A stretch of 64,000 nt of DNA from an uncultured Clostridia bacterium (GCA_937886445.1 CALGBY010000063.1:5267-69266); one strand, 5' to 3'. Shown: positions 3,195 to 42,022, counted from the first letter of the stretch. Translations and numbers: made by a program. The notes: generated from the letters alone by a model not told the origin.

Positions 3195-3226
3195 AAGGAT
3201 ACGGATCTCGCCGTATCCTTTTTTGT
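3195..3226. terminator. rho-independent terminator, probably bidirectional (lexA / rnpB)
   Basis: AAGGATACGG-ATCTCG-CCGTATCCTT followed by TTTTTT and preceded by an A-run. Confidence 0.7.
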
Positions 3227-3228
3227 AT

Positions 3229-3566
3229 GAAGCGCAGTCTGTAAGCCGAGTTCTGTCTTGGATGATCATCTATCTACGCGAATCGTTACCGAAACGCTCA
3301 AGCGATACTGCGGAAACAGGACGAGCAGCCCATGTGTTTCCAAGATCTTGCACCGGATGTGGTTTACATGACGGACGAGTCGCCAGGCCGCCGGTGCGCT
3401 CTTACCGCACCTTTCCACCCTTACCGTATAAATACGGCGGTATCTCTCTGTTGCACTTGCATTGGAGTCGCCTCCACCGGACGTTATCCGGCATCCCGCT
3501 CTGTGGTGCTCGGACTTTCCTCATGCCATATGGCACGCGATCACCCGGCTGCCTTCATAGCTTTTA
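3229..3566 (-). ncRNA. rnpB: RNase P RNA
   Basis: The minus strand carries the conserved blocks GAGGAAAGTCCGAGC, GGTAAGGGTGGAAAGGTGCGGTAAGAGCGCACC and ACAGAACTCGGCTTACAG. The termini GAAGGCAG / CTGCGCTTC can pair as P1. End coordinates are approximate (about +/-10 nt). Confidence 0.85.
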
Positions 3567-6856: not shown

Positions 6857-8620
6857 TCATGTTGATGCTTTGTATGTATTGAGCAGTTTCATCAGACGCA
6901 TGATTTCCTGCATCGTCTCATTTCTCTTATCAGCATCTGTGATACTGCTAATTTCTTCTTTCAGTTCGTCGATTTTCTTCTCGGTATTCGATATTCTGAG
7001 GGTTTTCAGGCAGTCCTGCAGTGCGGCTGCATGGTTATCCTTCATATCGTCAGCACACATCGCGAATGTCTCGCTCAGCATTGCCCGGTCGATACTGTCC
7101 TCCGCTTCCTCCATGATCTGCTCGGCACGTATGCCTGAGATCAGCTTTTCAGCAGTCTTGGAAAAAAGCGGGTACGAAAAATCCTCTTTATTGATCAGGC
7201 CTTCCGGTACGGCTTTCAAAAGAAGCATGCATACCAGTGTCTGTTCCGCTTTGAACGCCTTGTCTTTTTTGTCCCGTTCGTCTTTTCCCCGTCTGGCTGC
7301 AGGCTGTGCAGGTCTCATATTCAGCATGGAAGGAACTGCCTTAGTGACCCCGATCTGAGAATAAAGCACATCCTTTGCAAAGCCGGTCTTCGACGAAAGA
7401 TATTCGATGTAGATCTCGATATCGACCGGATCCTTTACCCCTTTGAGCACCTCTGCACAGCTTTTCGCAGCATCAGCTCTTCCCGCGGGATCGGCAAGAT
7501 CTGCCTTCCCGAGTATCCTGTTCATCAGAAAATGCACTGCGGTATCAGGCGTAAGGCCCATAAACGCTTCTTTCCCATTTTGGCGCACATATTCGTCCGG
7601 ATCGATCCCCGGCGGAAGCTGCAGCACCTTTACGGGGATATCTTCCGATGCAAAGATGCCGATCGCTCTTTCAATCGCATGCTGACCCGGTTCATCACCG
7701 TCGTAACAGATCCATATTTCGGGGCAGAACCTGTGAAGAAGCCTCGCCTGTTCAACTGTCAGCGAAGTACCGAGTGTTGCTACCGCACCGGTGATCCCCG
7801 CCTGCCAGAGAGATATCACATCCATGTATCCTTCTGTCAGGATGATCCGCTTCAGTCCGCGTTCTTTCTTTATCAGATTGGCCGCGAAAACACCCAGACG
7901 TTTGTTGAAAACGGGGGTATCTGAAGTGTTGAGGTACTTTGGTTTCGCATCCCCCATCGTTCTTCCGCCGAACCCGATCACCTGACCTGACGCATCAATG
8001 ATCGGAAAAATCGCTCTGTTTCGAAACATATCGAAGCAGCCGTTTTCCTTTTTGACACATAGTCCCGCAAGTGCTGCATCTTCCTCCGAATAGCCAAGCC
8101 CTTTTAGATAAGTCAGTACTGCATCCCACGCGTCCGGCGCGGCACCGAGACCGAATTTGCGTATCACCTGATCAGTCAGTCCTCTGGAATAGAGGTATTG
8201 CAGTACCGCTCTTCCCTCCTCTTTCCACAGACAATCATGATAGAACCTTGCTGCCTCGGTATTGATCGCTTTCAGCCTGTCACGAATGGAACGCTTTTTT
8301 TCCCACTCCGGGTCCTCAGTGATGTTCGGCGGGGGCATTCTGTACATGTCTCCCAGAAACAGCGCGGCGTCTGAATAATTCAGATGCTCCATTTCCGAAA
8401 TGAACTGTACTACATTTCCTCCGGCCTTACAGCCAAAGCAGTAATACAGATTGGCATCGGCTGTAACGGAGAATGACGGAGTTTTCTCATTGTGAAAAGG
8501 GCAAAGCCCCCAATATCGCTTACCGTCTTTCTTAAGCGCGACATACCTGGATACTACATCACAGATATTCGCTTTTGCATACAATTCATCGAGCCATTGC
8601 TGCGGCAGTCTTCCGCCCAT
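6857..8620 (-). CDS. dnaG: DNA primase
   Basis: Zinc finger CPFHNEKTPSFSV...YYCFGCKAGGN and TOPRIM motifs (ILTEGYMDVISL, YDGDEPG). Lies upstream of rpoD as in the macromolecular-synthesis operon. Confidence 0.95.
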   Translation of the reverse strand: MGGRLPQQWLDELYAKANICDVVSRYVALKKDGKRYWGLCPFHNEKTPSFSVTADANLYYCFGCKAGGNVVQFISEMEHLNYSDAALFLGDMYRMPPPNITEDPEWEKKRSIRDRLKAINTEAARFYHDCLWKEEGRAVLQYLYSRGLTDQVIRKFGLGAAPDAWDAVLTYLKGLGYSEEDAALAGLCVKKENGCFDMFRNRAIFPIIDASGQVIGFGGRTMGDAKPKYLNTSDTPVFNKRLGVFAANLIKKERGLKRIILTEGYMDVISLWQAGITGAVATLGTSLTVEQARLLHRFCPEIWICYDGDEPGQHAIERAIGIFASEDIPVKVLQLPPGIDPDEYVRQNGKEAFMGLTPDTAVHFLMNRILGKADLADPAGRADAAKSCAEVLKGVKDPVDIEIYIEYLSSKTGFAKDVLYSQIGVTKAVPSMLNMRPAQPAARRGKDERDKKDKAFKAEQTLVCMLLLKAVPEGLINKEDFSYPLFSKTAEKLISGIRAEQIMEEAEDSIDRAMLSETFAMCADDMKDNHAAALQDCLKTLRISNTEKKIDELKEEISSITDADKRNETMQEIMRLMKLLNTYKAST

Positions 8621-8740
8621 CAGTACATCACCCTCATAATGATTCGCCGGAAAACCGATATTTCCTGCAGGGTTTACAGCAAAATAACCAATAACATAAA
8701 ACCGTTCCCCGAAAAGGAGAACGGTCCGTATTGAAAGTCC

Positions 8741-9598
8741 TTATCTGTTTTCCAGGTATTCCATACAGGAATAGATCGCTTCCAGTTCATCTCTTGTTGA
8801 ATACTGAAGAACTACCTTTCCCTTATTCACGCTGCCTGAGATCTGTGTTTTTACACCGAACACAGAACGCAGCCGCTCTTCAAGATCCGTAAGCTCAGGA
8901 ACTGAGCGGACATGCTTATTCTCGGGACGCTCGGGCGCTTTATTGCTCACAGAACGGCACAGTGATTCTGTCTCCCGCACGCTCAGCCCGTTTTTCACGA
9001 TTTTCTCGGCTATTGATATCTGATCAGACGGATTCTGAAGGGAACACAGTGCTCTTGCGTGCCCCTCGCTGATCTTGCCGTTTAATGTCATATCAATAAC
9101 GCTTTCCGGTAATGAAAGTATCCTTAACAGGTTTGTGATCACCGATCTTGACTTGCCCAGCCGCTTTGCGGCGGTTTCCTGAGTATAGCTGCATTTTTCG
9201 ATCAGTGAACGGATCGCTCTCGCCTCGTCAATGCAGTTCAGATCCTCTCTCTGAAGGTTTTCGATCAGGGCGGCTTCCATCTTATCCGTTTCGCTCATAT
9301 CGCGTACGATGCACGGGACAGTTTCCAATCCTGCTTTTCTTGCGGCTCTGTATCGCCTTTCTCCTGCTATAATCCGGTATCTTCCTTCCGTTTCTACAAC
9401 GATCAATGGCTGCAGAATACCGGCGCTTCTGATACTTTCCGCAAGCTCCCCGATATTTTCTTCATTAAAGTTCTGCCTTGGCTGCAGCGGATCCCTGTCT
9501 ATATCGTTGATAGAGATCTCCCTTACTGTATTTGCACTGCCCGTTTCCGCATCAGGCAGCAAAACATCCAAACCTCTTCCGAGTGCTGTTTTCTTCAT
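8741..9598 (-). CDS. parB: ParB/Spo0J chromosome partitioning protein
   Basis: ParB box motifs LQPLIVV and IIAGERRYRAARKAGLETVPCIV, plus an HTH (SYTQETAAKRLGKSRSVITNLLR). Confidence 0.9.
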   Translation of the reverse strand: MKKTALGRGLDVLLPDAETGSANTVREISINDIDRDPLQPRQNFNEENIGELAESIRSAGILQPLIVVETEGRYRIIAGERRYRAARKAGLETVPCIVRDMSETDKMEAALIENLQREDLNCIDEARAIRSLIEKCSYTQETAAKRLGKSRSVITNLLRILSLPESVIDMTLNGKISEGHARALCSLQNPSDQISIAEKIVKNGLSVRETESLCRSVSNKAPERPENKHVRSVPELTDLEERLRSVFGVKTQISGSVNKGKVVLQYSTRDELEAIYSCMEYLENR

Positions 9599-9605
9599 AT
9601 CATGT

Positions 9606-10364
9606 TCACCTGTTCTTCCTGATTATTTCTCTCGCGAGGTTCTGATACGCTTCGGCTCCGGCACAGCGCTTATCATACAGATTGATCGGCAGCCCATGGC
9701 TGGGGGCTTCTCCGAGACGAACATTGCGCGGTATAGCGGTAGAAAAAACTTTTCCCTTGAAATGCTTTTTCACTTCATTGACTACCTGAATACAAAGATT
9801 TGTTCTGCCGTCAAACATCGTCAGCACAATACCTTCTATGTCAAGCGAAGCATTGATACCATGCCTCACACGCTGTATCGTGTTCATCAGGGCGGATACG
9901 CCCTCCAAAGCAAAGTATTCACACTGTATCGGGATCAATACGCTTTGCGCCGCAGCCAATGCGTTTACCGTAAGCAAACCGAGAGACGGCGGACAGTCGA
10001 TGATGATATAGTCAAACAGGTTTCTGGCCTGTTCTATCACCGCACGCAGACGAAACTCCCGTCTTTCAACGGATACAAGTTCTATTTCTGCTCCGGATAA
10101 ACGGATATCGGAAGGCAAAACAAAGAGCCCCTGTTGTACGGAAGGAAACACGGAATTTTCAAGTGTCGTTTTTGCCGCGAGCAGTTCATATACAGTTCTG
10201 CTGCCGGCCTTTACGCCCAGTCCGCTTGATGCATTTCCCTGAGGGTCAAGATCGACCAGAAGCACTTTCCTGCTTTCTGCAGCCAGTGCTGCAGCGAGGT
10301 TGATCGCTGTAGTTGTTTTCCCTACGCCGCCCTTTTGATTTGCGACTGCAATAATCTTTCCCAT
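9606..10364 (-). CDS. parA: ParA/Soj partitioning ATPase
   Basis: Deviant Walker A ([18 protein letters not shown]) and DCPPSLG. The ATG at 10364 is preferred over the GTG at 10370. Confidence 0.9.
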
Positions 10365-10666
10365 TCTCACACTTCCACAGATATATTGAGCATATAATAC
10401 GATACCACATAAAGCTTAAAAAGTCTATTATAATTCAAATAACATTCATCCTCATCAAAAGCTTCTGAAGCATTCCTGTACAGGATGCCGCTTTTGCATT
10501 TTTCTTCTATTGCTAAATCCATCGTAATCTGCTAAAATATTCCAGCAGGTCAGAAAATCGATGTTGTTTTTGCATCGTCAGGATTCGGCTGACACACATG
10601 AACCTGTTTATTTTCTTTATCATACCGTTCCAGCCTGCAGTGATCGCACATCCGGGAGGGTTGTTC

Positions 10667-12004
10667 TTGAATAAAGATATTCTTTGGGAAAAAGCCTGTG
10701 TACTCATTCGTGACGAACTGAATGAGGTGACATACAATACCTGGATCGTGTCCGGGCTAAAAGCACTCTCATTTGAAAACGACTGTTTTGTGCTTGAGGC
10801 AATAACACCGTTCTATTGCAATATCATCAGACAGCGATATATCAACCTGATAAATACATGCCTTACGCAGGCAGCGCAGCGTCCGGTCAGTGTCTCGGTG
10901 CTTACTCCCGCGGAAGCAGAGGAACACAAGACTGTTAAGGAACAGAAAAGCGCTCCTGTGAACGAAAGCAAAACCATACTGAATCCAAAATATACATTCG
11001 ATACATTTGTTGTCGGAAATAATAACCGTTTCGCGCATGCGGCATCGCTTGCTGTAGCCGAAGCGCCAGCCGATGCCTATAATCCGCTTTTTATCTACGG
11101 TGGCGTAGGTCTCGGAAAAACGCATCTTATGCATGCGATCGGTCATTTTGTTCTTGCTCAGAACCCGGAAACGCGTATCAGTTATCTGACAAGTGAAGAA
11201 TTCACTAATGAAGTGATCTCATCCATTCAGGACAGAAAGGCTTCCTCCAACTTCAGAGAAAAATACCGCAACATAGATATTCTGATGATCGACGATATTC
11301 AGTTTATTGCCGGTAAGGAAAGGACCCAGGAAGAGTTTTTCCATACATTCAATGCCCTTCACGATAACGGAAAACAGATCATCATCACTTCCGACCGTCC
11401 GCCCAAGGAGATCCCGAAGCTTGAAGAAAGGCTTTGCAGCCGTTTTGAATGGGGTCTTCTGGCTGATATCTCAAAGCCCGATCTTGAAACCCGCATTGCG
11501 ATCCTTCGTAAAAAAGCAGAGACTGATCATCTGGATATTGATGAAAATGTTCTCGAAATGATCGCCGAAAACATCTCCAGCAACATCCGTGAGCTGGAGG
11601 GCTGCCTTACAAGGCTCGTGCTGTACTCATCCCTTTCCGCTCTTTCCGATCAGCCGATCACCGTCGCTCTTGCGCGGGAAGCACTTTCCGATGTGTTCAG
11701 CAAAAACAGTCCTCACGTGCTGAACTGTGATGATGTCATGATGGCCGTTGCGGAATACTACGGTGTTACTTCTGATGATCTGCGTTCTCCCAAGCGTCAG
11801 CGTGCCGTTGCCGTTCCGAGACAAGTCGCCATGTATATATGCAGAGACATGGTAAACGCTTCTCTTCCTGTGATCGGGAACGCCTTCAACAGAGATCATA
11901 CTACAGTGATGCACGCCTGTGATAAGGTAAGTGAAGAGTTGAAGACCTCAATATCACTCAAGAACCTCATTTCCGATATCGAACATAAACTGAATAATAA
12001 CTGA
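10667..12004 (+). CDS. dnaA: chromosomal replication initiator DnaA
   Basis: AAA+ motifs (NPLFIYGGVGLGKTHL, ILMIDDIQF) and domain IV (HTTVMHACDKV). The N-terminal 23 codons of the ORF look non-native. TTG at 10667 follows GGGAGGG (10654-10660). Confidence 0.93.
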   Translation: MNKDILWEKACVLIRDELNEVTYNTWIVSGLKALSFENDCFVLEAITPFYCNIIRQRYINLINTCLTQAAQRPVSVSVLTPAEAEEHKTVKEQKSAPVNESKTILNPKYTFDTFVVGNNNRFAHAASLAVAEAPADAYNPLFIYGGVGLGKTHLMHAIGHFVLAQNPETRISYLTSEEFTNEVISSIQDRKASSNFREKYRNIDILMIDDIQFIAGKERTQEEFFHTFNALHDNGKQIIITSDRPPKEIPKLEERLCSRFEWGLLADISKPDLETRIAILRKKAETDHLDIDENVLEMIAENISSNIRELEGCLTRLVLYSSLSALSDQPITVALAREALSDVFSKNSPHVLNCDDVMMAVAEYYGVTSDDLRSPKRQRAVAVPRQVAMYICRDMVNASLPVIGNAFNRDHTTVMHACDKVSEELKTSISLKNLISDIEHKLNNN

Positions 12005-12143: not shown

Positions 12144-15100
12144 GTGTCAGCTTTGAAAAAGCGTTCATTCTTCTGCTTAACGGTTTCGATCGTTCTTCTG
12201 TTATCCGTTTTTATTTGTGCATACGCGTCCGATGAAGATGCTCCTTTCGGAGTCGTAAATGTTTCAACGGTTAACATGCGCGAATCCGACAGCATGAACT
12301 CAGGCATCGTTATGTCTGTAGGTCAGAACGAGAAGGTAAGTGTTCTTTGTGAATCGAACGGATTCTATAAAGTAAAATACAATAACAAAACCGGCTACAT
12401 CCTCTGTGAGTATATATCATTGGACGAAACGCTGATCGGAAAAAAGGCATATGCGGCGATCGGCAGTCTCAACATCCGCACCGGTCCCTCAACAGATAAT
12501 GATATTATTTACATAATGGATAAAAATGAAGAAATGACAGTGCTTGGCATCAGTGGTACATATTACCGTGTATCCTGCGGAAAAACCGAAGGGTATGTCT
12601 CAATGCAGTTCGTTTCTCTTCCGGAAAATGAAGAATATGGTATTTTCGGAAAAAATACCGTATGTATGATCACTGTTAACAGTGTAAACCTGCGCGAGTC
12701 TCCTTCTCTTTCATCCAATGTCATTGCTAAACTTACCAAGCAGGACCGTCTTTCTGTGATCTCGTGTTCAGACGGTTTTTACAAGGTAAAAGTAAATGGA
12801 AAAACCGGTTACGTTGCTTCGGAGTACTTAATAAAGGCGGATGACAGTGTTTCCTCCTCCGGTTCAAAAAGCGCAGATCCTTCCCCCACTCCGAGAAAAA
12901 CTGCTACTCCCTCCCTGCAGAAACTCAATAAATCAGGAACAGTCAATGTTGATTCGCTGAATGTGCGTGAAAGTCCGGATGCTTCTTCTGAAATCATTGA
13001 TAAGCTCATTCGCGGTACTGAGGTCAGCATCGTTGCGGAGACGAACGGATTTTATCAAATCAACCATGATCATCACACAGGATATGTCGCAAAACAGTAC
13101 ATCAGTATCAACGATCAGGATGCTAGAAAGAGCGCAACAGCTTTACCTTCTCAAAAAGATACTCTGCTCAATAAAAACGGCAGGACGAATGTTTCAGACC
13201 TTAACATGAGAGTCGGACCGTCTTCCGATACCGGGGTCATCATGAAGCTTTCCAGCGGAACAGAAGTGGATATCATAGGAGAAAACAACGGTTTCTATAA
13301 AATCAAGTATAACGGAAAAACCGGATATGTAAGCAAAGCATATGTGAACATTATAGAAAAGACCTCTGCGACTTCTGCCCCGGCAAAGAAAACGGAAACT
13401 GTAAAAGAAACTAAGAAAAGCGGTAAGGTCACTTCTCAAACCCTGAATGTAAGAAGTGAACCGAGCACGGAGAGCGCGATCATTACCGTATTGAGTTCCG
13501 GAACAGCATTGAATATCACAGGTGAAACCGATTCATATTACCGCATAACGGTCAATTCCAGAACCGGTTATGTAAGCAGGCAGTATGTTACAGTTATTAC
13601 AGCCACCCAGGCGCCATCCGCAAAGGCCGAGAACACCGGCGTCAAGGTTACAACTGTCAAAAAAAGCGGTTCCGTCATTTCTGAGACGCTCAATGTAAGA
13701 AAAGAAGCCAGTACCTCCTCAGCTGTCCTTACAGTTCTTCGCGAAGGGACGTCAGTATCGATCAACGGTGAAACGGATGAGTTTTACAGGATCGATATTC
13801 AAGGCAAAACAGGCTATATCGCCAAACAATATGTGAAGATCGGCAGCACCTCTTCCGGTGAGGCAAAAGCATCTGCTTCCGCTGATAAGATTAATTCTCT
13901 GAATGCGAAGGGTACGGTTTCTTCTTCTACCTTGAACATGAGAGCCGCAGCTGATAAATCATCGGATATCATCCTTGTACTGAATCACGGAACGGCGCTT
14001 AATGTGACCGGCGAAACAAAGGATTTCTACCGTGTTTCATACAATGGCAAAACCGGTTTTGTGAGCAAGCAATATCTGAACATTGACAACAGCAAAGCAG
14101 GTGAAAAGGCCACATCCTCCCCTCGTGCCACAGAAACGAAACCCACAGAAGCCTTTACATCCATCACAGCAAATGGCACCGTCAATACCGACGGTTTGAA
14201 CATGCGAAAAGAAGCTTCGACTTCCTCCGATTCGCTTTTGAAACTTCAAAAAGGCACAACAGTTTCCATTTCCGCGCAGAGCAAGAGCTTCTACAAGATC
14301 AAGTATAACGGAATGACGGGATATGTAGCAAAACAGTATGTTAATATTGTAAAAATCACTGCCGCTCCCAAGTCTGACAAAAAAACCGCCACTCCTTCCC
14401 CGAAGAAAACAGAAACTGCTGCCGTAGAAAAGTTTGAAACCTATACAGCAACAGGAAAGACAAACACCTCCGGCCTGAATCTGCGCAAAGAAGCTTCAAC
14501 ATCCTCAAAAAGTCTTGCTGTTCTCAATTCCGGTACATATCTGAATGTGATCGCACAGAGCAGAAATTTTTATAAGGTGAAAGTGAATTCTATTACCGGA
14601 TACATTGCCAAACAGTATGTATCCATTGTAAAAGAAACACCTAAACCCACCACAAAGCCTGCTGCACAGGCCGGAAAATTCGACAATGTCAAAACGATCT
14701 CCGAGCTTGGTGCAGCTCCCGGTTATCTTTCCTCAGGCAACAGCGGTGAGGATGTTGAAAAGCTGCAGCAGGCACTGAAGATAAAGGGTTATTACGAAGG
14801 TCAGGTAAACGGAAAATTCGGTTCCGAAACAAAGCAGGCTCTGATCGCATATCAGAAGGCTGCAGGGCTTGATCAAACCGGAAAGGCCGATTACAAAACG
14901 ATTCTCAAGCTTTTCGGGAAGGTCAGTGTCACCTCCGTTGCCGATGACCCCAAGATGAACGGGATCACAAAGATCTCCCAGATTTCCGTACCTGCCACCA
15001 GCAAGAAAGGTGACAGCGGCAAAAATGTTCTTGCGCTGCAGCAGGCGTTGAAGATCAAAGGCTACTACAAAGCACCAATCAATTCGGTATATGACAGTGT

Positions 15101-15617
15101 AACAACAGAAGCGGTCAAGGCGTATCAGAAGGCCAAAGGCATTACAGCTGACGGCGAAGCCGGTTTTTCAACGATCAAAGCGATATTCGGTGAGAATGCT
15201 GCGAACTATACCTATGTCACTGAATCGCTGGACTGGTTCAAAAACGGAGACAATACGATACCGAAGGGAGCGATCCTGACGGTAAAGGATGTCAATACCG
15301 GCAAAACATTCAAAGTAAAGCGGTGGAGCGGCGCAAATCACGCTGATGTAGAACCGCTCACAGCATCCGATACGGCCGTTATGAAGAGCCTGTACGGCAC
15401 CTGGAGCTGGTCCCGCAGAGCGATCCTGGTTCTCTATAAGGGTCATGTTTACGCTGCGTCCATGAACGGAATGCCTCACGGGACAAGCACGATCAATAAC
15501 AACAATTTCAACGGGCACTTCTGTATTCACTTTACCGGAAGCAAAACACACGCTTCAAAGAAGGTCGATCCGGATCACCAGGCTGCGATCAGACGCGCGC
15601 TGAAGGCAAAATGGTAA
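12144..15617 (+). CDS. secreted cell-wall-binding protein: 10 SH3b repeats + 2 PG_binding_1-like domains + unassigned C-terminal domain
   Basis: Signal peptide (FFCLTVSIVLLLSVFICAYA). Ten repeats of the pattern xLNVRxxPSxxSxVIxxLxxGxxVxV....FYK(V/I)xYNGKTGYVxxxYV, separated by S/T/P/K/A linkers. Two GxDVxxLQQALKIKGYY...AxxAYQKAxGLxxxGxA units follow. The last ~140 aa contain PHGTSTINNNNFNGHFCIHF. Confidence 0.9.
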   Translation: MSALKKRSFFCLTVSIVLLLSVFICAYASDEDAPFGVVNVSTVNMRESDSMNSGIVMSVGQNEKVSVLCESNGFYKVKYNNKTGYILCEYISLDETLIGKKAYAAIGSLNIRTGPSTDNDIIYIMDKNEEMTVLGISGTYYRVSCGKTEGYVSMQFVSLPENEEYGIFGKNTVCMITVNSVNLRESPSLSSNVIAKLTKQDRLSVISCSDGFYKVKVNGKTGYVASEYLIKADDSVSSSGSKSADPSPTPRKTATPSLQKLNKSGTVNVDSLNVRESPDASSEIIDKLIRGTEVSIVAETNGFYQINHDHHTGYVAKQYISINDQDARKSATALPSQKDTLLNKNGRTNVSDLNMRVGPSSDTGVIMKLSSGTEVDIIGENNGFYKIKYNGKTGYVSKAYVNIIEKTSATSAPAKKTETVKETKKSGKVTSQTLNVRSEPSTESAIITVLSSGTALNITGETDSYYRITVNSRTGYVSRQYVTVITATQAPSAKAENTGVKVTTVKKSGSVISETLNVRKEASTSSAVLTVLREGTSVSINGETDEFYRIDIQGKTGYIAKQYVKIGSTSSGEAKASASADKINSLNAKGTVSSSTLNMRAAADKSSDIILVLNHGTALNVTGETKDFYRVSYNGKTGFVSKQYLNIDNSKAGEKATSSPRATETKPTEAFTSITANGTVNTDGLNMRKEASTSSDSLLKLQKGTTVSISAQSKSFYKIKYNGMTGYVAKQYVNIVKITAAPKSDKKTATPSPKKTETAAVEKFETYTATGKTNTSGLNLRKEASTSSKSLAVLNSGTYLNVIAQSRNFYKVKVNSITGYIAKQYVSIVKETPKPTTKPAAQAGKFDNVKTISELGAAPGYLSSGNSGEDVEKLQQALKIKGYYEGQVNGKFGSETKQALIAYQKAAGLDQTGKADYKTILKLFGKVSVTSVADDPKMNGITKISQISVPATSKKGDSGKNVLALQQALKIKGYYKAPINSVYDSVTTEAVKAYQKAKGITADGEAGFSTIKAIFGENAANYTYVTESLDWFKNGDNTIPKGAILTVKDVNTGKTFKVKRWSGANHADVEPLTASDTAVMKSLYGTWSWSRRAILVLYKGHVYAASMNGMPHGTSTINNNNFNGHFCIHFTGSKTHASKKVDPDHQAAIRRALKAKW

Positions 15618-15625
15618 ACAAACTG

Positions 15626-15664
15626 TTCAGGGGGAGCTGCATGCAGCTCCCCCTGAATGTTTTT
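15626..15664. terminator. bidirectional terminator between convergent genes
   Basis: TTCAGGGGGAGCTGC-AT-GCAGCTCCCCCTGAA (15-bp perfect stem) followed by TGTTTTT. Confidence 0.75.
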
Positions 15665-15667
15665 CGA

Positions 15668-16381
15668 TCATCTTACAATAAAATCAAAACTTTTATCAAA
15701 TGGTTGATTGCGAAGGCGATAATGCCACCATTCCCGCTGAAAACACTTAAATCCGTATTTCTCCATAACGGTCTTCAAAATGCTCCGGTTCTTCTCCTGT
15801 TCATCCGTCAGCCCGCCTGCACCGTGCCATGCTTTCTTCCCGAAATAATCAAACCCTGTACCCATATCCAATTCATTGCCGTCAAGATCCGTAAGCGTCA
15901 TATCAACGCAGCTGCCTTTACAGTGATTTGAGTTTCTGGCAATGTATTCCCGGTCCAGAAGGAGCTGCTTGCTGCTGATCTCAGGATAGTATTCGCTGCG
16001 TGTGTCATCAAGTAATGGATCCTCCGCCCACTTAACAAATGCCCTGACTGCTCTGAGGGGTCTGTAGGCGTCCCAGATTTTTATTCTGAATCCCATATCG
16101 CGCAGTTCATCCGCCGCCTTCTTCAATGCTGTACAGGCCTCTGTTGTCAGTATGGCCGTGTTCCGTTCATATCCGTCAACGGTTCCGCCCGTAAAGTTTC
16201 TGTCGGAAAAATAGCGGATATCAACGATCACATCATCGATGTAATCCTCCGCCCGTGAAAATCCCTCCGGTAAAGAGTATTCATTTTCCGAAACAGAACC
16301 TTCACATTTTACTTCCGCGTAAAGCGGGCATATAAGAAGAATCATACAGATGATCCCGAATTTTTTTGCACTAATGCTCAT
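15668..16381 (-). CDS. secreted D-alanyl-D-alanine dipeptidase (VanX/DdpX-like, peptidase M15D)
   Basis: Motifs DIRYFSDRNFTG, IWDAYRPLRA, SNHCKGSCVDMTL, ELDMGTGFDYF and EWWHY, plus an N-terminal signal-like segment. The ATG at 16381 is preferred over 16402. Confidence 0.85.
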   Translation of the reverse strand: MSISAKKFGIICMILLICPLYAEVKCEGSVSENEYSLPEGFSRAEDYIDDVIVDIRYFSDRNFTGGTVDGYERNTAILTTEACTALKKAADELRDMGFRIKIWDAYRPLRAVRAFVKWAEDPLLDDTRSEYYPEISSKQLLLDREYIARNSNHCKGSCVDMTLTDLDGNELDMGTGFDYFGKKAWHGAGGLTDEQEKNRSILKTVMEKYGFKCFQREWWHYRLRNQPFDKSFDFIVR

Positions 16382-16886
16382 TGACGGTAAACCTCTGATC
16401 ATATTTTTTCCCGAAGATCAAGTAATCTATTTTAATATCTCTGCTTTTTTGCCCGTTATTTACTCTTCTCAGCAAAAGGCATGATACATCCTTTGTTCTG
16501 CCCGGCTCAATGACCGTTTCATTTTCATCAGGCATATAAAACAACAGATCTCCGTTTTCATGATTCAGACTCAGTTCAACAGCCCGCACATCGGCAAAGC
16601 TCCGGTTCGTTATGCGAAGCGTGTACAAAACATACTCAAGGCCTTCACCTTCTGCCGGTACTTCCTCCGCGTATACCGTACCCTTAACAGCGCTGTCCGC
16701 CATCAGTATACTGTCCTTAAGAAAGCGTTCGGCATACACAGGATCATTCAAAGAGAGTACATAGGATGTAGAAGCATCAGGATCAATATATAAAGTCGTA
16801 TTGATCCTGAACACAATGTAAAGACAGATAAAGACAAGCGCAGTGATGACAAGCACAGCAGTTGTGATAATAAGGAATTTCTTCAT
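16371..16886 (-). CDS. membrane-anchored hypothetical protein (N-terminal TM + probable beta-rich ectodomain)
   Basis: MKKFLIITTAVLVITALVFICLYIVF followed by a ~140 aa soluble domain. Overlaps the dipeptidase start by 11 nt, which suggests coupling. I recognise no family. Confidence 0.65.
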   Translation of the reverse strand: MKKFLIITTAVLVITALVFICLYIVFRINTTLYIDPDASTSYVLSLNDPVYAERFLKDSILMADSAVKGTVYAEEVPAEGEGLEYVLYTLRITNRSFADVRAVELSLNHENGDLLFYMPDENETVIEPGRTKDVSCLLLRRVNNGQKSRDIKIDYLIFGKKYDQRFTVNEH

Positions 16887-16896
16887 TTAATGTTTG

Positions 16897-17015
16897 CCCC
16901 TTCGGATGAAGTGCCATCAGGTGCTTGAAAACAACCGTACACGATTCTGATACTTATGTCCGTCCTCCGGATGAATCACCATGGGTGATTCGAATATCGG
17001 CCGACACGTTCATCA
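16897..17015 (+). repeat. two degenerate units of the dispersed 65-72 bp intergenic repeat family
   Basis: CCTTCGGATGAAGTGCCATCAGGTGCTTGAAAACAACCGTACAC... and GTCCGTCCTCCGGATGAATCACCATGGGTGATTCGAATATCGGCCGACAC align by eye with the units at 24378-24553. Confidence 0.6.
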
Positions 17016-17026
17016 AATTACATGCT

Positions 17027-17971
17027 TCAGTTTTCACCGCTGAGAAGTCTGTGCATCTCATTGACCATATCGCTGTCCTTCAGGCGGAATTTGAATGTAA
17101 CTCGCCTTGAAGCGTCCTTATCCTCGATATTCGTACCGCTTACATAGATCGGATCCGCTTCGCTTCTTCCGGTAACGCAGAGCACCTTTTCAAACATTGC
17201 ACGCTGCGCGGCGGAAAGGCCCGGGATCTGTAAGCAGTATTCCGCAACTGCTCTCGCTCTTTCCTGCGAAAGCTTCATGTTCGATAAGTAGTCGCCGTCT
17301 GTATCAGTATGCCCTTCGATCGTGATCTCACCCACATAATCCTTGTATTCATCAGACAGCAGCACATTCAGATATACCGGCAAAAAGCGATTCAGAAAAT
17401 CCTTTCCGCTGTCCTTTATCATATAGGTGTTCTTGTCAAAAAGCACGGTGCTCTTCAGCACGATATCACCGGTCTTTTCATCAACAGAAGTATTCAGATT
17501 TGCCCTGGTAAGGGAAACGGAAAGCTTGGATATGATATCACTTCTCACACCGATCAGCTGCGCGATCTGCCGTTCTTTCTCCTTAAGAAGGTTTTCCTGT
17601 TCCTGATTTGTTAAAATCAGTCTGTCCAGTTCTGTCTGCTTTTCTCCAAGCAGGATCAGCATATTGCTTATCTCAGCCTGCTGCTCATCAATTCTGATTT
17701 GTGCAAGATCAAGCTCGTTCTCTCTTTCTGACAGCTGGATCTTCATTACATCCATGCTTGCGGTCTGTCCGATAATGATGATCCGCTGCTCTTCTATTTC
17801 ATTCTGACTGGCTATCAGGATCATCTTCTGCTGATTCAAACGATATACGCATACAAACACCGCCATGACAAAAAGCATCAGTAATGAGGCCATCATATCT
17901 GAATAACTGATCCAATGAGAGCCTCCGTCACCGTTTCCCGGTCTTCTGACACTTCGTTTTTCACGCATCAC
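17027..17971 (-). CDS. MotB/ZorB-like protein: TM plug with conserved Asp, ~90-aa coiled coil, OmpA-like peptidoglycan-binding domain
   Basis: HWISYSDMMASLLMLFVMAVF matches the MotB W..Y.D......F motif. Heptad region at ~aa 45-140. OmpA-like IEGHTDTDGDYLSNMKLSQERARAVAEY. Its start GTGATG overlaps the stop of the upstream gene. Confidence 0.85.
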   Translation of the reverse strand: MMREKRSVRRPGNGDGGSHWISYSDMMASLLMLFVMAVFVCVYRLNQQKMILIASQNEIEEQRIIIIGQTASMDVMKIQLSERENELDLAQIRIDEQQAEISNMLILLGEKQTELDRLILTNQEQENLLKEKERQIAQLIGVRSDIISKLSVSLTRANLNTSVDEKTGDIVLKSTVLFDKNTYMIKDSGKDFLNRFLPVYLNVLLSDEYKDYVGEITIEGHTDTDGDYLSNMKLSQERARAVAEYCLQIPGLSAAQRAMFEKVLCVTGRSEADPIYVSGTNIEDKDASRRVTFKFRLKDSDMVNEMHRLLSGEN

Positions 17972-19521
17972 AAAACCTCCGGTACGGTTTTTCCGTTCAG
18001 CCTATTGATCGCTCCCGTCAAATCGCGAACCGCGTTCTGAAGCGCCGAGCATTCACTGATCAGCATTGAAGGATCCGAGGAGGCCATCCCTGCCCTGCTT
18101 CGGATCTCATCTGCTTTTTCCAATGCGGCAGAAAGCAGTCTGCCCATCTGCTGTTCAAAAGAAGACAATGTTTTTTCAGTACTTGATGCAAATGAACCGG
18201 TCAGTGCGGTATATGCTTCACGCAGTGCATCTGCGCTGACACGCATGCCTTCCATAATGCTGCCGGATAATTGCTCGGTACCGTTCTGCTGCACGGAAAC
18301 AGCGTTCAATACACGTCCGCTCCATTCGGCGTAATTCTTCATGTCGTTTTTCAGCGTCTGCTGGCTGTTTTCCAGGGCTGCAAGCAAATCACTCTGTTCC
18401 TGCGCAGACGCCATCATTCCGGATAGTATCTCTGAGGAATGCCGCAAAAAGTCATCGTTGCTTCGATCATGTTCAGACAGCGTATCGATCATGGCTGACA
18501 GGCGTTTTCCGGCATATTCGGTAGCCGTTTGTACACCCTTCAGGCTGTTCATCATGTTTTCCACACTGCTCAGTGTTTGATCGATGCTTTGTATGTTGAT
18601 CTGCTGTTCACGGTTCACTTCAGAAAGAGTCTCCCCCAGAGAAAGCAGTTGTCCGCTCATCTCTTCATTGAGCTTCAGAATGAAGTTATGTACGATCGCA
18701 TTCAGTCCTTCGATCTGTGACTGTGTTTCACCGGCAATAAAGCGGCTTATGCTGCTGCTAACGGGTGCAAGAGAGCCTTCTACTGCGGTCACGATACCGG
18801 ACGATACCCGTTCCGCGATAGAATCTACGCCATGCCTAAGCATAACGCTCTGATCCTCCTGCTGAATGATCATCCTTACGCTGTCATCAACAGGACGCTG
18901 CATAACGATTTCAGAGAATGTATCCTGAAAATTATCAAGTGCCTTGACTGCGCTTCCGTTTACCGTTTTGCAGATGATGTTGAAGCAAAGAGAGCAGGCA
19001 ACACCGGCAACGGAGGTTGAAAACGCAAATGTCATACCGCTTACCATATTGCTGATGGAATCAACAAGCTGCTCATTGCCTGCGTTCAGGTCCAGACCGC
19101 CAAGACCTCTGATCAAACCGATAAATGTACCAAGAATACCGATACTGGTAAGCAGCCCGGGCACGATCTCGCTCAGCTGCATATGGCCAACGGCATATAT
19201 CGTTGAGTCATCATTGATATAGTCATCAACATTGCATGTCAGTCCTCTCGCGTCCAGCTGGATCGCGTTGCTCAAAAAACGGTTCCACGCGCACTCAAGC
19301 CGTTTTCCGAGGAACAGGCTGTTCTGCCACCGCGGTGTGCCGGTAGCATCGGTCGCAGCAGGATCCCGCAGGATCCCCGAAGCCGCGCTTTTAAGGCATG
19401 CAGCAACACGCATGACCGGAAAAATACATTTAAGAAAACCTATCAGCGTAACGATCGCGATCGCGCCGTATACAAGAACATCAATGATATTACTGCCGAT
19501 ATACTGAAAAACCGATCCCAT
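17968..19521 (-). CDS. MotA/TolQ/ExbB-family proton-channel protein with ~330-aa C-terminal helical tail (ZorA-like architecture)
   Basis: TM1 is VLVYGAIAIVTLIGFL. Channel core is LLTSIGILGTFIGLIRGL and GMTFAFSTSVAGVACSLCFNI. The remainder is S/Q/E/L/N-rich with few Pro. The ATG at 19521 follows GGAAAGGAG; the track start at 19560 is a TTG. Confidence 0.8.
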   Translation of the reverse strand: MGSVFQYIGSNIIDVLVYGAIAIVTLIGFLKCIFPVMRVAACLKSAASGILRDPAATDATGTPRWQNSLFLGKRLECAWNRFLSNAIQLDARGLTCNVDDYINDDSTIYAVGHMQLSEIVPGLLTSIGILGTFIGLIRGLGGLDLNAGNEQLVDSISNMVSGMTFAFSTSVAGVACSLCFNIICKTVNGSAVKALDNFQDTFSEIVMQRPVDDSVRMIIQQEDQSVMLRHGVDSIAERVSSGIVTAVEGSLAPVSSSISRFIAGETQSQIEGLNAIVHNFILKLNEEMSGQLLSLGETLSEVNREQQINIQSIDQTLSSVENMMNSLKGVQTATEYAGKRLSAMIDTLSEHDRSNDDFLRHSSEILSGMMASAQEQSDLLAALENSQQTLKNDMKNYAEWSGRVLNAVSVQQNGTEQLSGSIMEGMRVSADALREAYTALTGSFASSTEKTLSSFEQQMGRLLSAALEKADEIRSRAGMASSDPSMLISECSALQNAVRDLTGAINRLNGKTVPEVL

Positions 19522-19740
19522 CGGAACACGCTCCTTTCCAGACTCATCATATTTTAGCAAATTATCAAAAGATTTTCAATCCATATTGTCTTTTACAGCA
19601 AATATGTTACAAACCGCAAGCTCATAAGCCGCAGCGTCGATAAGTGATCTGTATTTGCTGTTTTTTCATAATATTCGCATTGACGCGGTATTGTATTTAA
19701 TGATAAAATTGGAATATCGACTATGGAGGTTTCTTTGACG

Positions 19741-36581: not shown

Positions 36582-36657
36582 GGGGCATTAGCACAGTTGG
36601 TAGCGCGCTACATTCGCATTGTAGAGGTCAGCGGTTCGAATCCGCTATGCTCCACCA
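36582..36657 (+). tRNA. tRNA-Ala (anticodon CGC)
   Basis: Manual cloverleaf: GGGGCAT/ATGCTCC acceptor with G3:U70, D arm GCAC-AGTTGGTA-GCGC, anticodon arm CTACA-TTCGCAT-TGTAG, T arm AGCGG-TTCGAAT-CCGCT, and an encoded CCA. Confidence 0.9.
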
Positions 36658-41500: not shown

Positions 41501-41680
41501 ACCGCCTTTGTCTTTTACGTTATTGAGCCCCTTTTCAACAATTCCGGCAACGTATTTTGCCAACACCTTGGATGCTTCCGCACTGTCTATCTGCACGGTC
41601 TGTGAGAGCTTGTCTGTAACAGAAAGCTCTGAATCAAGTCCTTTATTTATGATTTGTTCATAAAGTCCATTATGAAGCAT
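38531..41680 (-). CDS. PLD (HKD) nuclease + SF2 DEAD/DEAH-type helicase + DUF3427-like C-terminal domain protein
   Basis: Single HKD motif LHAKTYMF...YVGSSNLSNAA. Helicase motifs are I VAATGTGKT, II IVDEFHH, III GLTATPER and VI QQLGRGLR. The C-terminal ~300 aa end in FHWQSQ...ILLFVRE...YTYLG, which I recall as DUF3427. Strong RBS AGGAGG. Confidence 0.9.
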   Translation of the reverse strand: MLHNGLYEQIINKGLDSELSVTDKLSQTVQIDSAEASKVLAKYVAGIVEKGLNNVKDKGGDLYSQVGLVNRIVSTIRSETNEDDFDTLSVAERAEQLLALFDRKNSMFALDRKAEIIRPETSIAQSSLFTGAIHEPQMFTELKKEILSCDRIDMLVSFIKWSGLRLIMEELTSFTQNGGHLRIITTSYMGATDVKAIEELRKLPNTCIKVSYDTKRTRLHAKTYMFYRDTGFTTAYVGSSNLSNAAISSGLEWNVKVTKKDLPETIDKISATFESYWNSGEFEYYDEEQKERLARALKAEKYFDTNDPEMYSLDIRPYSYQQEILDKLEAERSVRGYMRNLVVAATGTGKTVISALDYKRFRRKNAGKPCRLLFVAHREEILKQSLYTFRAVLKDVNFGEMFVGSYKPDGIENLFISIQTFNSQDFTTKTTPDFYDYIIVDEFHHAAAPAYQKLLKYYQPKVLLGLTATPERMDGRNILQYFNNRIAAEIRLPEAIDRKLLCPFQYFGVTDTVDLNQLKWVKGGYDRGELSEVYTLSGAIADRRADHVLSSVMKYVTDIDDVKGLGFCVTVEHAEFMCDYFNAHGIPSIHLSGKTCDEERKTAKNRLVSGEIRFIFVVDIYNEGVDIPEVNTVLFLRPTESLTVFLQQLGRGLRLCEGKDCLTVLDFIGQANRKYNFEDKFDSLLSNSARSLAREIRNGFIALPKGCYIQLEKQAAKYILDNIRASYSNSNGLLTRIASFEEDTGLKLTLTSFLDHYHIDPRMIYKFSTFSRLCARADVTDDFSEPAETVMEKAFARLCTIDSRRWISFLLDILPRLGDVNFDELPDMEKRMMRMFYVTIWGKSAEDWNSDEVLGNLYQLADSPLMLGELTELLQYNYDHIDFIDEPVPIGFDCPLDLHCTYTRDQLLVALDFMKPSTVREGVKWLPEKNLDVLFVTLNKSDKDYSPTTMYNDYSINSDLFHWQSQSTTASDSPTGRRYIYHQEKGSRILLFVREFKTDVISGSAATYTYLGTANYVIHDGEKPMNITWRLDHPIPAKFLRKTNKLVVG

Positions 41681-42008: not shown

Positions 42009-42022
42009 TTCATGGCGCGCCC

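What the first reader, a model, noticed from the sequence alone, without database searches (positions are those of the whole stretch)
17027..19560. Orphan Zorya-like stator pair without any known partner module
Seen in sequence: a MotA/TolQ/ExbB-type protein with three TM segments and the channel core LLTSIGILGTFIGLIRGL / GMTFAFSTSVAGVACSLCFNI. About 330 residues of S/Q/E/L-rich, Pro-poor sequence follow the last TM. It is translationally coupled (GTGATG overlapping TGA) to a MotB-type protein. That protein has the plug/TM motif WISYSDMMASLLMLF with the conserved Asp, an unusual ~90-aa heptad region, and an OmpA-like domain (IEGHTDTDG...SQERARAV). Established knowledge: a pentameric MotA-like subunit with a long C-terminal coiled-coil tail plus a PG-anchored MotB-like subunit is the ZorA/ZorB architecture of the Zorya anti-phage system. 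True flagellar MotA has 4 TM segments and no tail. Inference: no flagellar, chemotaxis, Tol-Pal, TonB, ZorC/ZorD or ZorE genes lie within 10 kb. This may therefore be an ion-driven envelope machine with an unidentified output, such as a minimal or new Zorya-type defence or an envelope-stress device in a Gram-positive lineage.
Basis: partly seen in the sequence, partly recalled or inferred. Interest (0 to 1): 0.78.

Follow-up and report, generated by a model that had tools for sequence, protein, structure and literature searches.

The report
ZorAB-like wall motor with new partner
The two genes are a real relative of the ZorA/ZorB ion-driven motor of the Zorya phage-defence system, but they are not orphans. 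In hundreds of uncultured gut and rumen Clostridia they form a tight, vertically inherited operon with a previously undescribed small membrane protein, and often a secreted D-Ala-D-Ala peptidase, which points to a cell-wall machine rather than a mobile defence island.

Summary
On the minus strand, a 517-aa ZorA-like protein (19521..17968) overlaps the start of a 313-aa ZorB-like protein (17968..17027). Sequence profiles and fold searches put both closest to solved ZorA/ZorB structures, ahead of TolQ, ExbB and MotA.

"Orphan" is wrong. A 171-aa single-pass membrane protein with an outward-facing beta-sandwich (p171, 16886..16371; no Pfam, NCBIfam or PADLOC match) follows B in 67 of 69 related loci that have room for it, with a median gap of 3 nt. 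A signal-peptide-bearing VanX-type M15 peptidase (16402..15668) follows p171 in about 34 of 80 loci and is fused to it in two.

The module co-diverges with the flanking housekeeping genes (r about 0.9). It sits next to HprK-ROK-AsnS in about 30 loci. It was not found on plasmids or in phage genomes. No ZorC/D/E/F/G gene accompanies it.

B carries a stalk of about 90-100 aa between its membrane helix and its wall-binding domain, which E. coli ZorB lacks.

Best reading (about 0.55): a chromosomally fixed ZorAB-type motor adapted to a single-membrane envelope, working in cell-wall surveillance or remodelling. Main rival (about 0.3): a new Zorya subtype. It is a new variant of a known kind. All evidence is computational.

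The parts
19551..19579 (-). Promoter-like site (TTGAAA, 17-nt spacer, TAAAAT, with TG before the -10) upstream of gene A
   Evidence: 10 of 12 matches. It is a consensus match only. It lies about 30 nt upstream of ATG 19521.
17968..19521 (-). Gene A: ZorA-like A subunit of the motor, 517 aa (stop codon included)
   Evidence: PADLOC ZorA1 2.9e-24. Family profile against PDB: ZorA 8vvn and 8qyd at about 1e-18. Foldseek top hits are ZorA. Precomputed Pfam family is PF28082 ZorA-like_t1.
19417..19485 (-). A, TM1 (residues about 13-35)
   Evidence: Hydrophobic helix in the AF2 model. Basic residues follow it, which fits an N-terminus-out topology as in ZorA, ExbB and TolQ (inference).
19171..19416 (-). 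A, membrane-proximal cytoplasmic domain (residues 36-117), the most conserved part of the protein
   Evidence: invariant W65 F70 G72 W79 F82 L83 N85 A86 L89 D90 R92 G93 C96 Y101 N103 D104.
18961..19170 (-). A, TM2-loop-TM3 channel core (residues 118-187)
   Evidence: Invariant P121, T132 (aligns with EcZorA T147) and T169/S170 (aligns with about EcZorA S184).
17971..18906 (-). A, cytoplasmic helical tail (residues 206-517)
   Evidence: five long helices, low pLDDT in the monomer model; 3.5-3.65-residue periodicity (0-1 of 500 shuffles reach it in most segments; 15 of 500 for 213-284); conserved tip motif S492..Q495.
17027..17968 (-). Gene B: ZorB-like B subunit, 313 aa from ATG 17968 (alternative GTG start at 17971); its start overlaps A's stop codon
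   Evidence: PADLOC ZorB1 4.8e-65. PDB ZorB 8vvi and 8qyd at about 6e-13.
17840..17920 (-). B, TM helix with the conserved ion-binding Asp24 (WISYSD)
   Evidence: The motif W-I-S-[YF]-S-D is found in 67 of 71 homologues. It aligns with FWISYAD, containing Asp26, of E. coli ZorB.
17549..17836 (-). B, Pro-free helical stalk (residues about 45-140) inserted between the TM helix and the wall-binding domain
   Evidence: the distance from the Asp to the xEGHTD motif is 185-234 aa in the family (median 210), against about 110 aa in EcZorB; the EcZorB wall-binding domain is fused to the TM helix without a linker.
17069..17521 (-). B, OmpA-like peptidoglycan-binding domain (residues about 150-300)
   Evidence: Pfam OmpA 6e-13. 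Three of the four EcZorB wall-binding residues (Y151/N152/L155/R159) are kept: N, L and R, within S-N-M-K-L-S-Q-E-R.
16887..17026 (-). 140-nt B-p171 spacer, unusually long for the family, with a 7-bp/5-nt hairpin at 16973-16991
   Evidence: The family median gap is 3 nt. No terminator-like site was found here.
16371..16886 (-). Gene p171: the conserved third component, an N-terminal TM helix plus an outward-facing beta-sandwich, with no known family
   Evidence: no hits; present in 67 of 80 loci. AF2 pLDDT 87; only generic beta-sandwich matches; 336 clusters at 50% identity among the 1.84 billion representatives; the 150 listed are about 160 aa stand-alone or shorter fragments, apart from one 390-aa hit (the length of the p171::M15 fusion ORFs) and a 227-aa and two 202-aa proteins.
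15668..16402 (-). Gene M15: VanX-type D-Ala-D-Ala peptidase with an N-terminal signal peptide; its start overlaps the end of p171
   Evidence: Pfam Peptidase_M15 3.5e-35. VanX structure 1R44 2.9e-45, with the SxHxxGxxxD and ExxH motifs kept. It follows p171 in 34 of 80 loci and is fused to p171 in L059 and L063.
15624..15659 (.). Strong bidirectional intrinsic terminator that closes the four-gene operon
   Evidence: 16-bp stem with 9 GC pairs and T-runs on both strands.

Best explanation
The locus is a four-gene operon, A-B-p171-M15, whose conserved core is A-B-p171. A and B form a ZorAB-type 5:2 ion-driven rotary motor. Five A subunits would surround two B helices that carry Asp24. Ion flow through the conserved Thr/Ser filter would turn the A ring and its all-helical cytoplasmic tail of about 310 residues.

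B differs from E. coli ZorB, whose wall-binding domain sits directly on the membrane helix. Here a rigid Pro-free stalk of about 90-100 residues (about 13-14 nm if it is a coiled coil) carries the OmpA-like domain. I infer that this lets the domain reach the peptidoglycan of a single-membrane envelope.

The third component, p171, is a single-pass membrane protein with an outward-facing beta-sandwich. I propose that it docks on the motor as TolA and TonB dock on TolQR and ExbBD. It would then act either as a force-transducing arm or as a wall sensor or gate. In the window's sub-clade it would position a secreted VanX-type D,D-peptidase at the membrane surface.

The module is inherited vertically with the chromosome. 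It most likely serves cell-wall surveillance or remodelling rather than acting as a mobile anti-phage system.

Shown here: homology, fold, conserved functional residues, operon linkage, gene fusion, synteny and co-divergence. Inferred: 5:2 stoichiometry, stalk geometry, docking of p171 on the motor, and the physiological role.
For: ZorA/ZorB identity. Conserved Asp24 and ion-path Thr/Ser. Helical amphipathic tail of near-constant length. Stalk insertion relative to EcZorB.

p171 is linked in 67 of 69 informative loci, with a median B-to-p171 gap of 3 nt, and 3 of 3 reverse checks were positive. The p171 family has 336 clusters at 50% identity and only this context was seen. p171::M15 fusion ORFs occur in L059 and L063, and both proteins have signals placing them outside the cytoplasm.

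One promoter-like site and one strong terminator bracket the four genes. Synteny with HprK-ROK-AsnS is seen in about 30 of 80 loci. Pairwise distances of A, B and p171 correlate at r = 0.86-0.91 with the housekeeping flanks (Mantel p = 0.001), and at r = 0.88-0.92 with each other.

No homologue was found in 72,556 plasmids or 50,697 phage genomes. Only 4 distant hits came from 2.9 million viral contigs. The immediate neighbours across loci are ordinary metabolic or housekeeping genes, spread over 115 Pfam families, with no recurrent nuclease or helicase. No ZorC/D/E/F/G hit was found in the window's neighbours.
Against: All characterised relatives are anti-phage systems, and nothing here tests function. 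A retains a long conserved cytoplasmic tail with a conserved tip. In Zorya that tail recruits cytosolic effectors, whereas the partners found here face outward, so the tail's role is unexplained.

A, B and p171 evolve faster than their housekeeping neighbours (mean p-distance 0.42-0.61 against about 0.31), as defence and envelope genes both do. The co-divergence test used only the 21 genomes that share the synteny.

The M15 gene is present in only about 40% of loci, so it is accessory. The p171 fold is a generic beta-sandwich with no functional signature. The coiled-coil signal in the stalk is marginal. Prevalence within the host clade could not be measured, and whether these uncultured hosts have a single membrane is assumed, not shown.
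Confidence: 0.55

Rival explanations
1. This is a new Zorya subtype, a true anti-phage system. The ZorAB-like motor senses phage attack on the thick wall. p171, with or without the M15 peptidase, acts as co-sensor or effector at the envelope. Alternatively the tail recruits an effector encoded elsewhere in the genome.
For: The closest profiles and structures are all Zorya. The tail and its tip are conserved, as in functional ZorA. The genes evolve fast. Zorya subtypes are known to be modular: zorABCD, zorABE, zorFABG. One related locus (L084) has a Gabija-like pair about 4.5 kb away.
Against: No nuclease, helicase or other cytosolic effector is linked to the module in 85 loci. The flanks are housekeeping genes, and synteny is conserved across deep divergence with host-like co-divergence. 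The family was not found on plasmids or in phage genomes, and only 4 distant hits came from viral contigs. The B stalk removes the 'wall-binding domain cannot reach the wall' logic proposed for EcZorAB activation. All NCBIfam ZorA and ZorB scores fall below the curated cut-offs.
Confidence: 0.3
2. This is a flagellar or other motility stator (MotAB, PomAB or MotPS type).
For: There is weak Pfam similarity: MotA_ExbB at 22.4 bits (below the 22.9 threshold) and MotB_plug at 1.5e-4. The conserved Asp is shared by all such stators.
Against: A has three TM helices and a 310-residue tail, with no MotA-type cytoplasmic domain. MotA and PomA rank well below ZorA and TolQ in the fold search. NCBIfam flagellar MotB models reach only about 1e-5. 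No flagellar or chemotaxis gene was seen in the ORFs read across the window (Pfam was run only on the genes within about 10 kb) or in 85 related loci.
Confidence: 0.02
3. This is a decaying remnant of a Zorya system that lost its effectors and no longer works.
For: Zor effector genes are absent.
Against: The reading frames are intact and of near-constant length in several hundred species-level genomes. Many residues are invariant, including the catalytic Asp and the ion-path residues. The genes are tightly coupled translationally, and a dedicated partner family co-evolves with them.
Confidence: 0.03

Closest known systems
Zorya type I ZorA/ZorB (E. coli 8QYD; Shewanella 8VVN)
   Same: Both have a three-TM A subunit with a long helical cytoplasmic tail, and a B subunit with W-I-S-Y-x-D in its TM helix plus an OmpA-like wall-binding domain. 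The ion-path Thr/Ser and the wall-binding N/L/R residues are kept. These are the best matches by profile and by fold.
   Different: There is no zorC/zorD (nor zorE, zorF, zorG). The tail is shorter, about 310 residues against about 500. B has a stalk of about 90-100 aa where EcZorB has no linker. The partners face outward (p171, M15). The hosts are Clostridia, presumed to have a single membrane, whereas Zorya is reported as under-represented in single-membrane bacteria. The module is vertically inherited and syntenic rather than in islands. Scores fall below the NCBIfam cut-offs.
Tol-Pal and Ton systems (TolQRA, ExbBD-TonB)
   Same: These share the three-component logic: a 5:2 motor from the same superfamily plus a single-pass protein anchored by an N-terminal TM helix that projects into the envelope. 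They have an envelope-maintenance role and are chromosomally fixed. TolQ is the next-best fold match after ZorA.
   Different: TolR and ExbD lack an OmpA domain, and TolQ and ExbB lack a tail. p171 shows no sequence match to TolA or TonB in Pfam or NCBIfam, and its TM helix has no His (SHLS-type motif). There is no outer membrane to act on.
Flagellar stator MotAB/PomAB
   Same: It uses the same 5:2 ion-driven principle, with a conserved Asp in B. Its OmpA-like domain is joined to the TM helix by a linker, as it is here.
   Different: MotA has four TM helices and a domain that binds FliG, with no tail. The gene context is flagellar. The similarity is much weaker.
VanX / PcgL D-Ala-D-Ala dipeptidases (M15D), for the fourth gene
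   Same: The match to VanX 1R44 is 2.9e-45, with the zinc ligands and catalytic Glu conserved.
   Different: It carries a signal peptide and in some species is fused to the membrane-anchored p171, so it acts outside the cytoplasm. It scores below the VanX equivalog cut-off (187 against 320 bits). There are no van resistance genes nearby.

Membership tests
Zorya anti-phage system (types I-III) | ZorA-type A subunit: MotA/ExbB-superfamily core with three TM helices plus a long helical cytoplasmic tail | tested here: met
   PADLOC ZorA1 2.9e-24. Family profile against PDB ZorA at about 1e-18. Foldseek top five hits are ZorA. Helical tail.
Zorya anti-phage system (types I-III) | ZorB-type B subunit with a TM Asp and an OmpA-like wall-binding domain | tested here: met
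   PADLOC ZorB1 4.8e-65. PDB ZorB at about 6e-13. Asp motif in 67 of 71 homologues.
Zorya anti-phage system (types I-III) | Adjacent cognate effector genes (zorC+zorD, zorE, or zorF+zorG) in the canonical gene order | tested here: not met
   No PADLOC Zor hit in the neighbours. Pfam on all genes within 10 kb found none. No conserved extra neighbour across 80 loci. Canonical orders are given.
Zorya anti-phage system (types I-III) | Scores above the curated NCBIfam ZorA/ZorB cut-offs | tested here: not met
   Best ZorA_2 score is 84.4 against a cut-off of 100. ZorB1 scores 75.7 against 400.
Zorya anti-phage system (types I-III) | Wall-binding domain of ZorB fused to the TM helix without a linker (the basis of the proposed activation model) | tested here: not met
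   A stalk of about 90-100 aa is inserted; compare the description.
Zorya anti-phage system (types I-III) | Protection against phage | not testable with these tools
   This needs an experiment.
Zorya anti-phage system (types I-III) | Behaviour typical of defence systems: patchy, mobile, located in defence islands | tested here: not met
   Conserved synteny and co-divergence with housekeeping genes. Housekeeping flanks. Absent from plasmids and phages, and nearly absent from viral contigs. Prevalence within the clade was not measured.
Pfam PF28082 ZorA-like_t1 | Match to the family model | tested here: met
   The precomputed hit is on P0001, which is 100% identical to the window's A, and on nearly all homologues. 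The family name appears. The model is not in the local Pfam copy, so no score could be recomputed.
Flagellar stator MotAB/PomAB | Four-TM MotA with a FliG-binding cytoplasmic domain, in a flagellar gene context | tested here: not met
   Three TM helices plus a tail. Pfam MotA_ExbB is below the gathering threshold. No flagellar genes were seen in the window or the loci.
Tol-Pal / Ton | TolR/ExbD-type B subunit without an OmpA domain, and a TolA/TonB third subunit with an SHLS-type TM motif | tested here: not met
   B has an OmpA domain. p171 has no TolA or TonB hit and no His in its TM helix. Only the three-part architecture is analogous.
VanX-type M15D dipeptidase (fourth gene) | Zinc ligands H/D/H and the catalytic Glu; VanX fold family | tested here: met
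   Pfam PF01427 3.5e-35. The 1R44 alignment shows SxHxxGxxxD and EWWH. The score is below the VanX equivalog cut-off, and the protein has an extra signal peptide.

The most novel reading that the evidence does not exclude
A-B-p171 may be the first ion-motive-force-driven, peptidoglycan-anchored envelope machine of single-membrane bacteria with a housekeeping role. It would be a functional counterpart of Tol-Pal, coupling membrane energy to wall maintenance through a dedicated single-pass partner. It may also represent the non-defence stock from which Zorya immunity was recruited, or a domesticated Zorya.
Probability: 0.2. Interest if true: 0.85.

Novelty: new variant of a known kind. Interest (0 to 1): 0.62.

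Why it matters
ZorAB is the newest branch of the 5:2 rotary-motor superfamily and is so far known only as an immune sensor in double-membrane bacteria. The Zorya structure paper notes that Zorya is under-represented in single-membrane bacteria.

A chromosomally fixed ZorAB-like motor in a large clade of gut and rumen Clostridia would matter in three ways. First, it shows how this motor is re-engineered for a thick-walled envelope, through the stalk on B. Second, it supplies a natural test of the proposed "wall-binding domain reach" activation model. Third, it opens the question of whether 5:2 motors power wall maintenance in Gram-positive bacteria, where no Tol-like system is known.

It also defines a new protein family (p171) whose only known context is this motor. 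And it warns annotation pipelines against calling ZorAB-like pairs "defence" on homology alone.

Tried and rejected
- **Single-sequence search with p171.** It found only its own cluster, because the family is too divergent for word seeding. This was solved by building a profile from locus ORFs.
- **Greedy longest-ORF clustering of locus genes.** It was confounded by antisense ORFs and by coiled-coil cross-hits that merged A with B. I used it only to show that no further conserved neighbour exists. The counts rely on tblastn and HMM searches.
- **First HMM iteration on p171.** It pulled in M15 peptidases through the fusion ORFs. These were separated by length afterwards.
- **Foldseek of p171 against PDB.** It returned only generic beta-sandwiches (adaptin ear, ApaG, FixG-related), so no function could be transferred.
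- **AF2 monomer of A.** The tail has low confidence (pLDDT 35-60), as expected for a chain that should be part of a pentamer. I used only its secondary structure.
- **Periodicity of the B stalk.** The signal is only marginal, so "coiled coil" stays an inference.
- **The 1049-aa helicase at 38.5-41.7 kb as a possible ZorD.** It is a type IV methyl-directed restriction enzyme, 19 kb away and unrelated.
- **Other checks that gave nothing.** Rfam found no regulatory RNA near the operon. Looking up the source contig of P0001 failed because it is not on record, so the organism is named only as an uncultured Clostridia relative. Literature searches for ZorA-like or ZorAB-like systems, or for a motor of this kind in single-membrane bacteria, found no description.
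- **Rejected readings.** Flagellar stator, Tol/Ton membership, and decayed pseudosystem.
Full report
**1. What is in the sequence**

All quoted peptide motifs are present.

Gene A most likely starts at ATG 19521, giving 517 aa, not at the mechanical TTG 19560. Homologues align from that Met. A GGAAAGGAG ribosome-binding site precedes it. A promoter-like TTGAAA-17-TAAAAT site ends at 19551.

A's stop codon (17970-17968) overlaps both possible starts of B, GTG 17971 and ATG 17968.

**2. What A and B are**

Pfam sees only a sub-threshold MotA_ExbB match in A. In B it finds OmpA (6e-13) plus a weak MotB_plug match.

The defence-system library is much clearer. Twenty-two ZorA models hit A, the best being ZorA1 at 2.9e-24. 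ZorB1 hits B at 4.8e-65. NCBIfam also ranks the ZorA and ZorB models first, but every score is below the curated cut-off.

A profile of 26 A homologues finds ZorA chains as the best solved structures (8vvn 2.7e-18, 8qyd 5.9e-18). B finds ZorB chains (8vvi, 8qyd, about 6e-13).

An AlphaFold model of A matches E. coli and Shewanella ZorA best by fold. TolQ comes next, then ExbB, MotA and PomA.

The functional residues are kept:
- B has W-I-S-Y-S-D24, aligned with the FWISYAD of E. coli ZorB that contains Asp26. The motif is present in 67 of 71 homologues.
- A's invariant T132 aligns with ZorA T147, and T169/S170 with about S184, the proposed ion filter.
- B keeps N, L and R of the four EcZorB wall-binding residues.

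The tail of A (residues 206-517) is predicted entirely helical, in five long helices. Its amphipathic periodicity is 3.5-3.65 residues. In most segments 0-1 of 500 shuffles reached the observed power, and 15 of 500 for segment 213-284.

**3. One clear structural difference from ZorB**

In E. coli ZorB the wall-binding domain is fused to the membrane helix without a linker. That feature underlies the proposal that the domain reaches the wall only after phage damage.

Here the distance from the Asp to the xEGHTD motif is 185-234 residues across the family (median 210), against about 110 in EcZorB. That is an insertion of about 90-100 residues, free of proline and rich in charged and aliphatic residues. 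Its heptad-type signal is only marginal, so "coiled-coil stalk" is an inference.

If helical, the stalk is about 13-14 nm long. From my own recollection of cryo-EM work on Gram-positive envelopes, that is of the order of the low-density zone between membrane and wall.

**4. The pair is not orphan**

A has more than 290 full-length homologues of 505-535 aa at 35-62% identity. All come from uncultured Clostridia, Christensenellales or Oscillospiraceae-labelled MAGs from gut, rumen and digesters.

Eighty loci were fetched.

tblastn of the window's neighbours against those loci gave these counts:

| Gene | Loci with a match (of 80) | Position |
|---|---|---|
| B | 76 | directly after A |
| 171-aa ORF (p171) | 48 | directly downstream of B |
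| M15 peptidase | 34 | after p171 |
| HprK-ROK-AsnS | about 30 | divergent, upstream of A |
| CapA | 20 | upstream of A |

A profile search raised p171 to 67 of 80 loci. Eleven of the 13 misses are contig ends, so the figure is 67 of 69 where there is room. The two exceptions are L035 and L048.

The gene gaps are minimal:
- A to B: median 1 nt.
- B to p171: median 3 nt, and 30 nt or less in 94% of loci.
- p171 to M15: median -17 nt, an overlap.

The window's 140-nt B-p171 spacer is atypical for the family.

The reverse test also holds. Three p171 homologues chosen only for contig length all lie right after a ZorA-like_t1 gene and an OmpA gene.

Searching the p171 profile against 1.84 billion representative proteins finds only 336 clusters. 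Of the 150 listed, nearly all are stand-alone proteins of about 160 aa or shorter fragments. The exceptions are one 390-aa protein, the length of the p171::M15 fusion ORFs, and a few of 202-227 aa.

In the window, a single promoter-like site and a single strong bidirectional terminator (15624-15659) bracket all four genes.

**5. What p171 and the fourth gene are**

p171 has no hit in Pfam, NCBIfam or PADLOC, and every homologue is annotated "hypothetical".

Its AlphaFold model is confident (pLDDT 87). It shows an N-terminal TM helix, a short helix and a seven-stranded beta-sandwich. Fold search returns only generic sandwiches, so no function can be transferred.

The N-terminal Lys-Lys before the TM helix suggests that the sandwich faces outward.

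The fourth gene is a VanX-type M15 peptidase (Pfam 3.5e-35; VanX structure 1R44 2.9e-45). Its zinc ligands and catalytic Glu are intact. It has about 46 extra N-terminal residues that read as a signal peptide.

In L059 and L063, p171 and the peptidase are one ORF of 390-399 aa. That links the two proteins functionally and places both on the same, outer, side of the membrane. The peptidase is confined to the window's sub-clade, so it is accessory.

**6. Defence island or housekeeping?**

All genes within 10 kb are ordinary: DnaG, ParB, ParA, DnaA, an SH3b/PG-binding wall protein, CapA-like, HprK, ROK kinase, AsnS, DUF2804, GH95 and an F420-ligase-like protein. None hits a PADLOC model.

The only defence gene in the window is a type IV methyl-directed restriction enzyme 19 kb away, between two tRNA genes.

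Across loci, the immediate neighbours fall into 115 Pfam families. The only recurrent ones are CapA-like, HprK and MarR. No nuclease or helicase recurs.

Pairwise distances of A, B and p171 correlate at r = 0.86-0.91 with the mean distance of the flanking HprK/AsnS/ROK genes (Mantel p = 0.001). They correlate at r = 0.88-0.92 with each other. The three genes are more divergent than their housekeeping neighbours (mean p-distance 0.42-0.61 against about 0.31).

No homologue was found among 72,556 plasmids or 50,697 phage genomes. Only four distant hits came from 2.9 million viral contigs.

This is the signature of a chromosomally fixed, vertically inherited module. There are two caveats. The co-divergence test covers only the 21 genomes that share the synteny. 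Prevalence within the clade could not be measured.

**7. Mechanism proposed**

Shown here:
- ZorAB-type motor parts, with the ion-binding Asp, the filter residues and the wall-binding residues.
- A helical cytoplasmic tail of constant length with a conserved tip.
- A stalk insertion in B.
- A dedicated single-pass partner, translationally coupled to B.
- A secreted D,D-peptidase that is coupled or fused to that partner.

Inferred:
- A5B2 stoichiometry and rotation.
- The stalk bridges membrane and wall, so the motor can be anchored to the wall in a single-membrane envelope.
- p171 docks on the A ring as TolA and TonB dock on their motors. It would either transmit force to the wall side or report the state of the wall to the motor, and it would hold the peptidase at the membrane surface.

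The role of the cytoplasmic tail remains unexplained, because no cytosolic partner is encoded in the operon.

I put about 0.55 on "vertically inherited envelope or cell-wall module". I put about 0.3 on "a new Zorya subtype that really defends against phage". Flagellar stator and decayed remnant each get a few percent.

**8. Comparison with what is known**

Published Zorya gene orders are zorABCD, zorABE and zorFABG. [quoted passage not shown]

Searches of the paper library found no description of a ZorAB-like system with this partner set, or in these organisms. Pfam already holds a family named ZorA-like_t1 (PF28082) that covers A. So the resemblance of A to ZorA is recorded in databases, while NCBI names these proteins only "MotA/TolQ/ExbB proton channel family protein".

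The module works like a ZorAB motor but fails the Zorya membership tests on effectors, curated score cut-offs, the linker-less ZorB and island behaviour. It resembles Tol/Ton only in its three-part logic.

**Verdict:** a new variant of a known kind.

Noticed in passing
window 38531-41680 (-), with tRNA genes at 36582-36654 (+) and 42016-42089 (-): A 1049-aa PLD-nuclease/helicase protein is a type IV methyl-directed restriction enzyme (PADLOC PDLC03659, 1e-230). It sits with two small unannotated ORFs between two tRNA genes, which looks like a small defence islet. It is unrelated to the ZorAB-like operon 19 kb away.
   Followed up: partly
window 12144-15617 (+): A 1157-aa secreted wall protein has about 10 SH3b repeats and 2 PG_binding_1 domains, plus a C-terminal stretch of about 130 aa with no assigned family. 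It converges on the operon's terminator. SH3b or PG-binding proteins also lie near the module in distant loci (L081 14787-16952; L085 8548-11002; tblastn hits in 8 of 80 loci). This could be chance, since such proteins are common in Clostridia.
   Followed up: partly
L059 12596-13795 and L063 12641-13813: These are single ORFs of 399 and 390 aa that fuse the p171-type TM helix and beta-sandwich to the M15 peptidase. A 390-aa hit (P0376) in the 1.84-billion-protein search has the length of these fusions but was not inspected.
   Followed up: yes
L076 and L079 (both from MAG JBJEUL01, Aristaeellaceae): The same MAG carries two A-B copies on different contigs, so the module can be duplicated.
   Followed up: no
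L084 13007-16462: A Gabija-like pair (OLD-type TOPRIM ATPase plus UvrD helicase), together with small phage-like genes, lies about 4.5 kb downstream of the module in one distant relative. This is not conserved elsewhere.
   Followed up: no
window 16887-17026 (hairpin at 16973-16991): The B-p171 spacer is 140 nt here, against a family median of 3 nt. It contains a 7-bp/5-nt inverted repeat (GAATCAC-CCATG-GTGATTC) with no T-run. It could be a local regulatory or processing site.
   Followed up: no
window 6857-12004 and 3225-3556: The window covers the replication-origin region (DnaG, ParB, ParA and a divergent DnaA) and the RNase P RNA gene. The ZorAB-like operon lies only about 5 kb from dnaA. 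The DnaA boxes of oriC were not mapped.
   Followed up: no
L001, L047 versus the other loci: AsnS identity to the window's copy is bimodal: 85-88% in the two closest loci and about 50% in the others. HprK declines smoothly. AsnS may therefore have been replaced, or may exist as two types in this clade (HprK-AsnS distance correlation is only r = 0.43).
   Followed up: no
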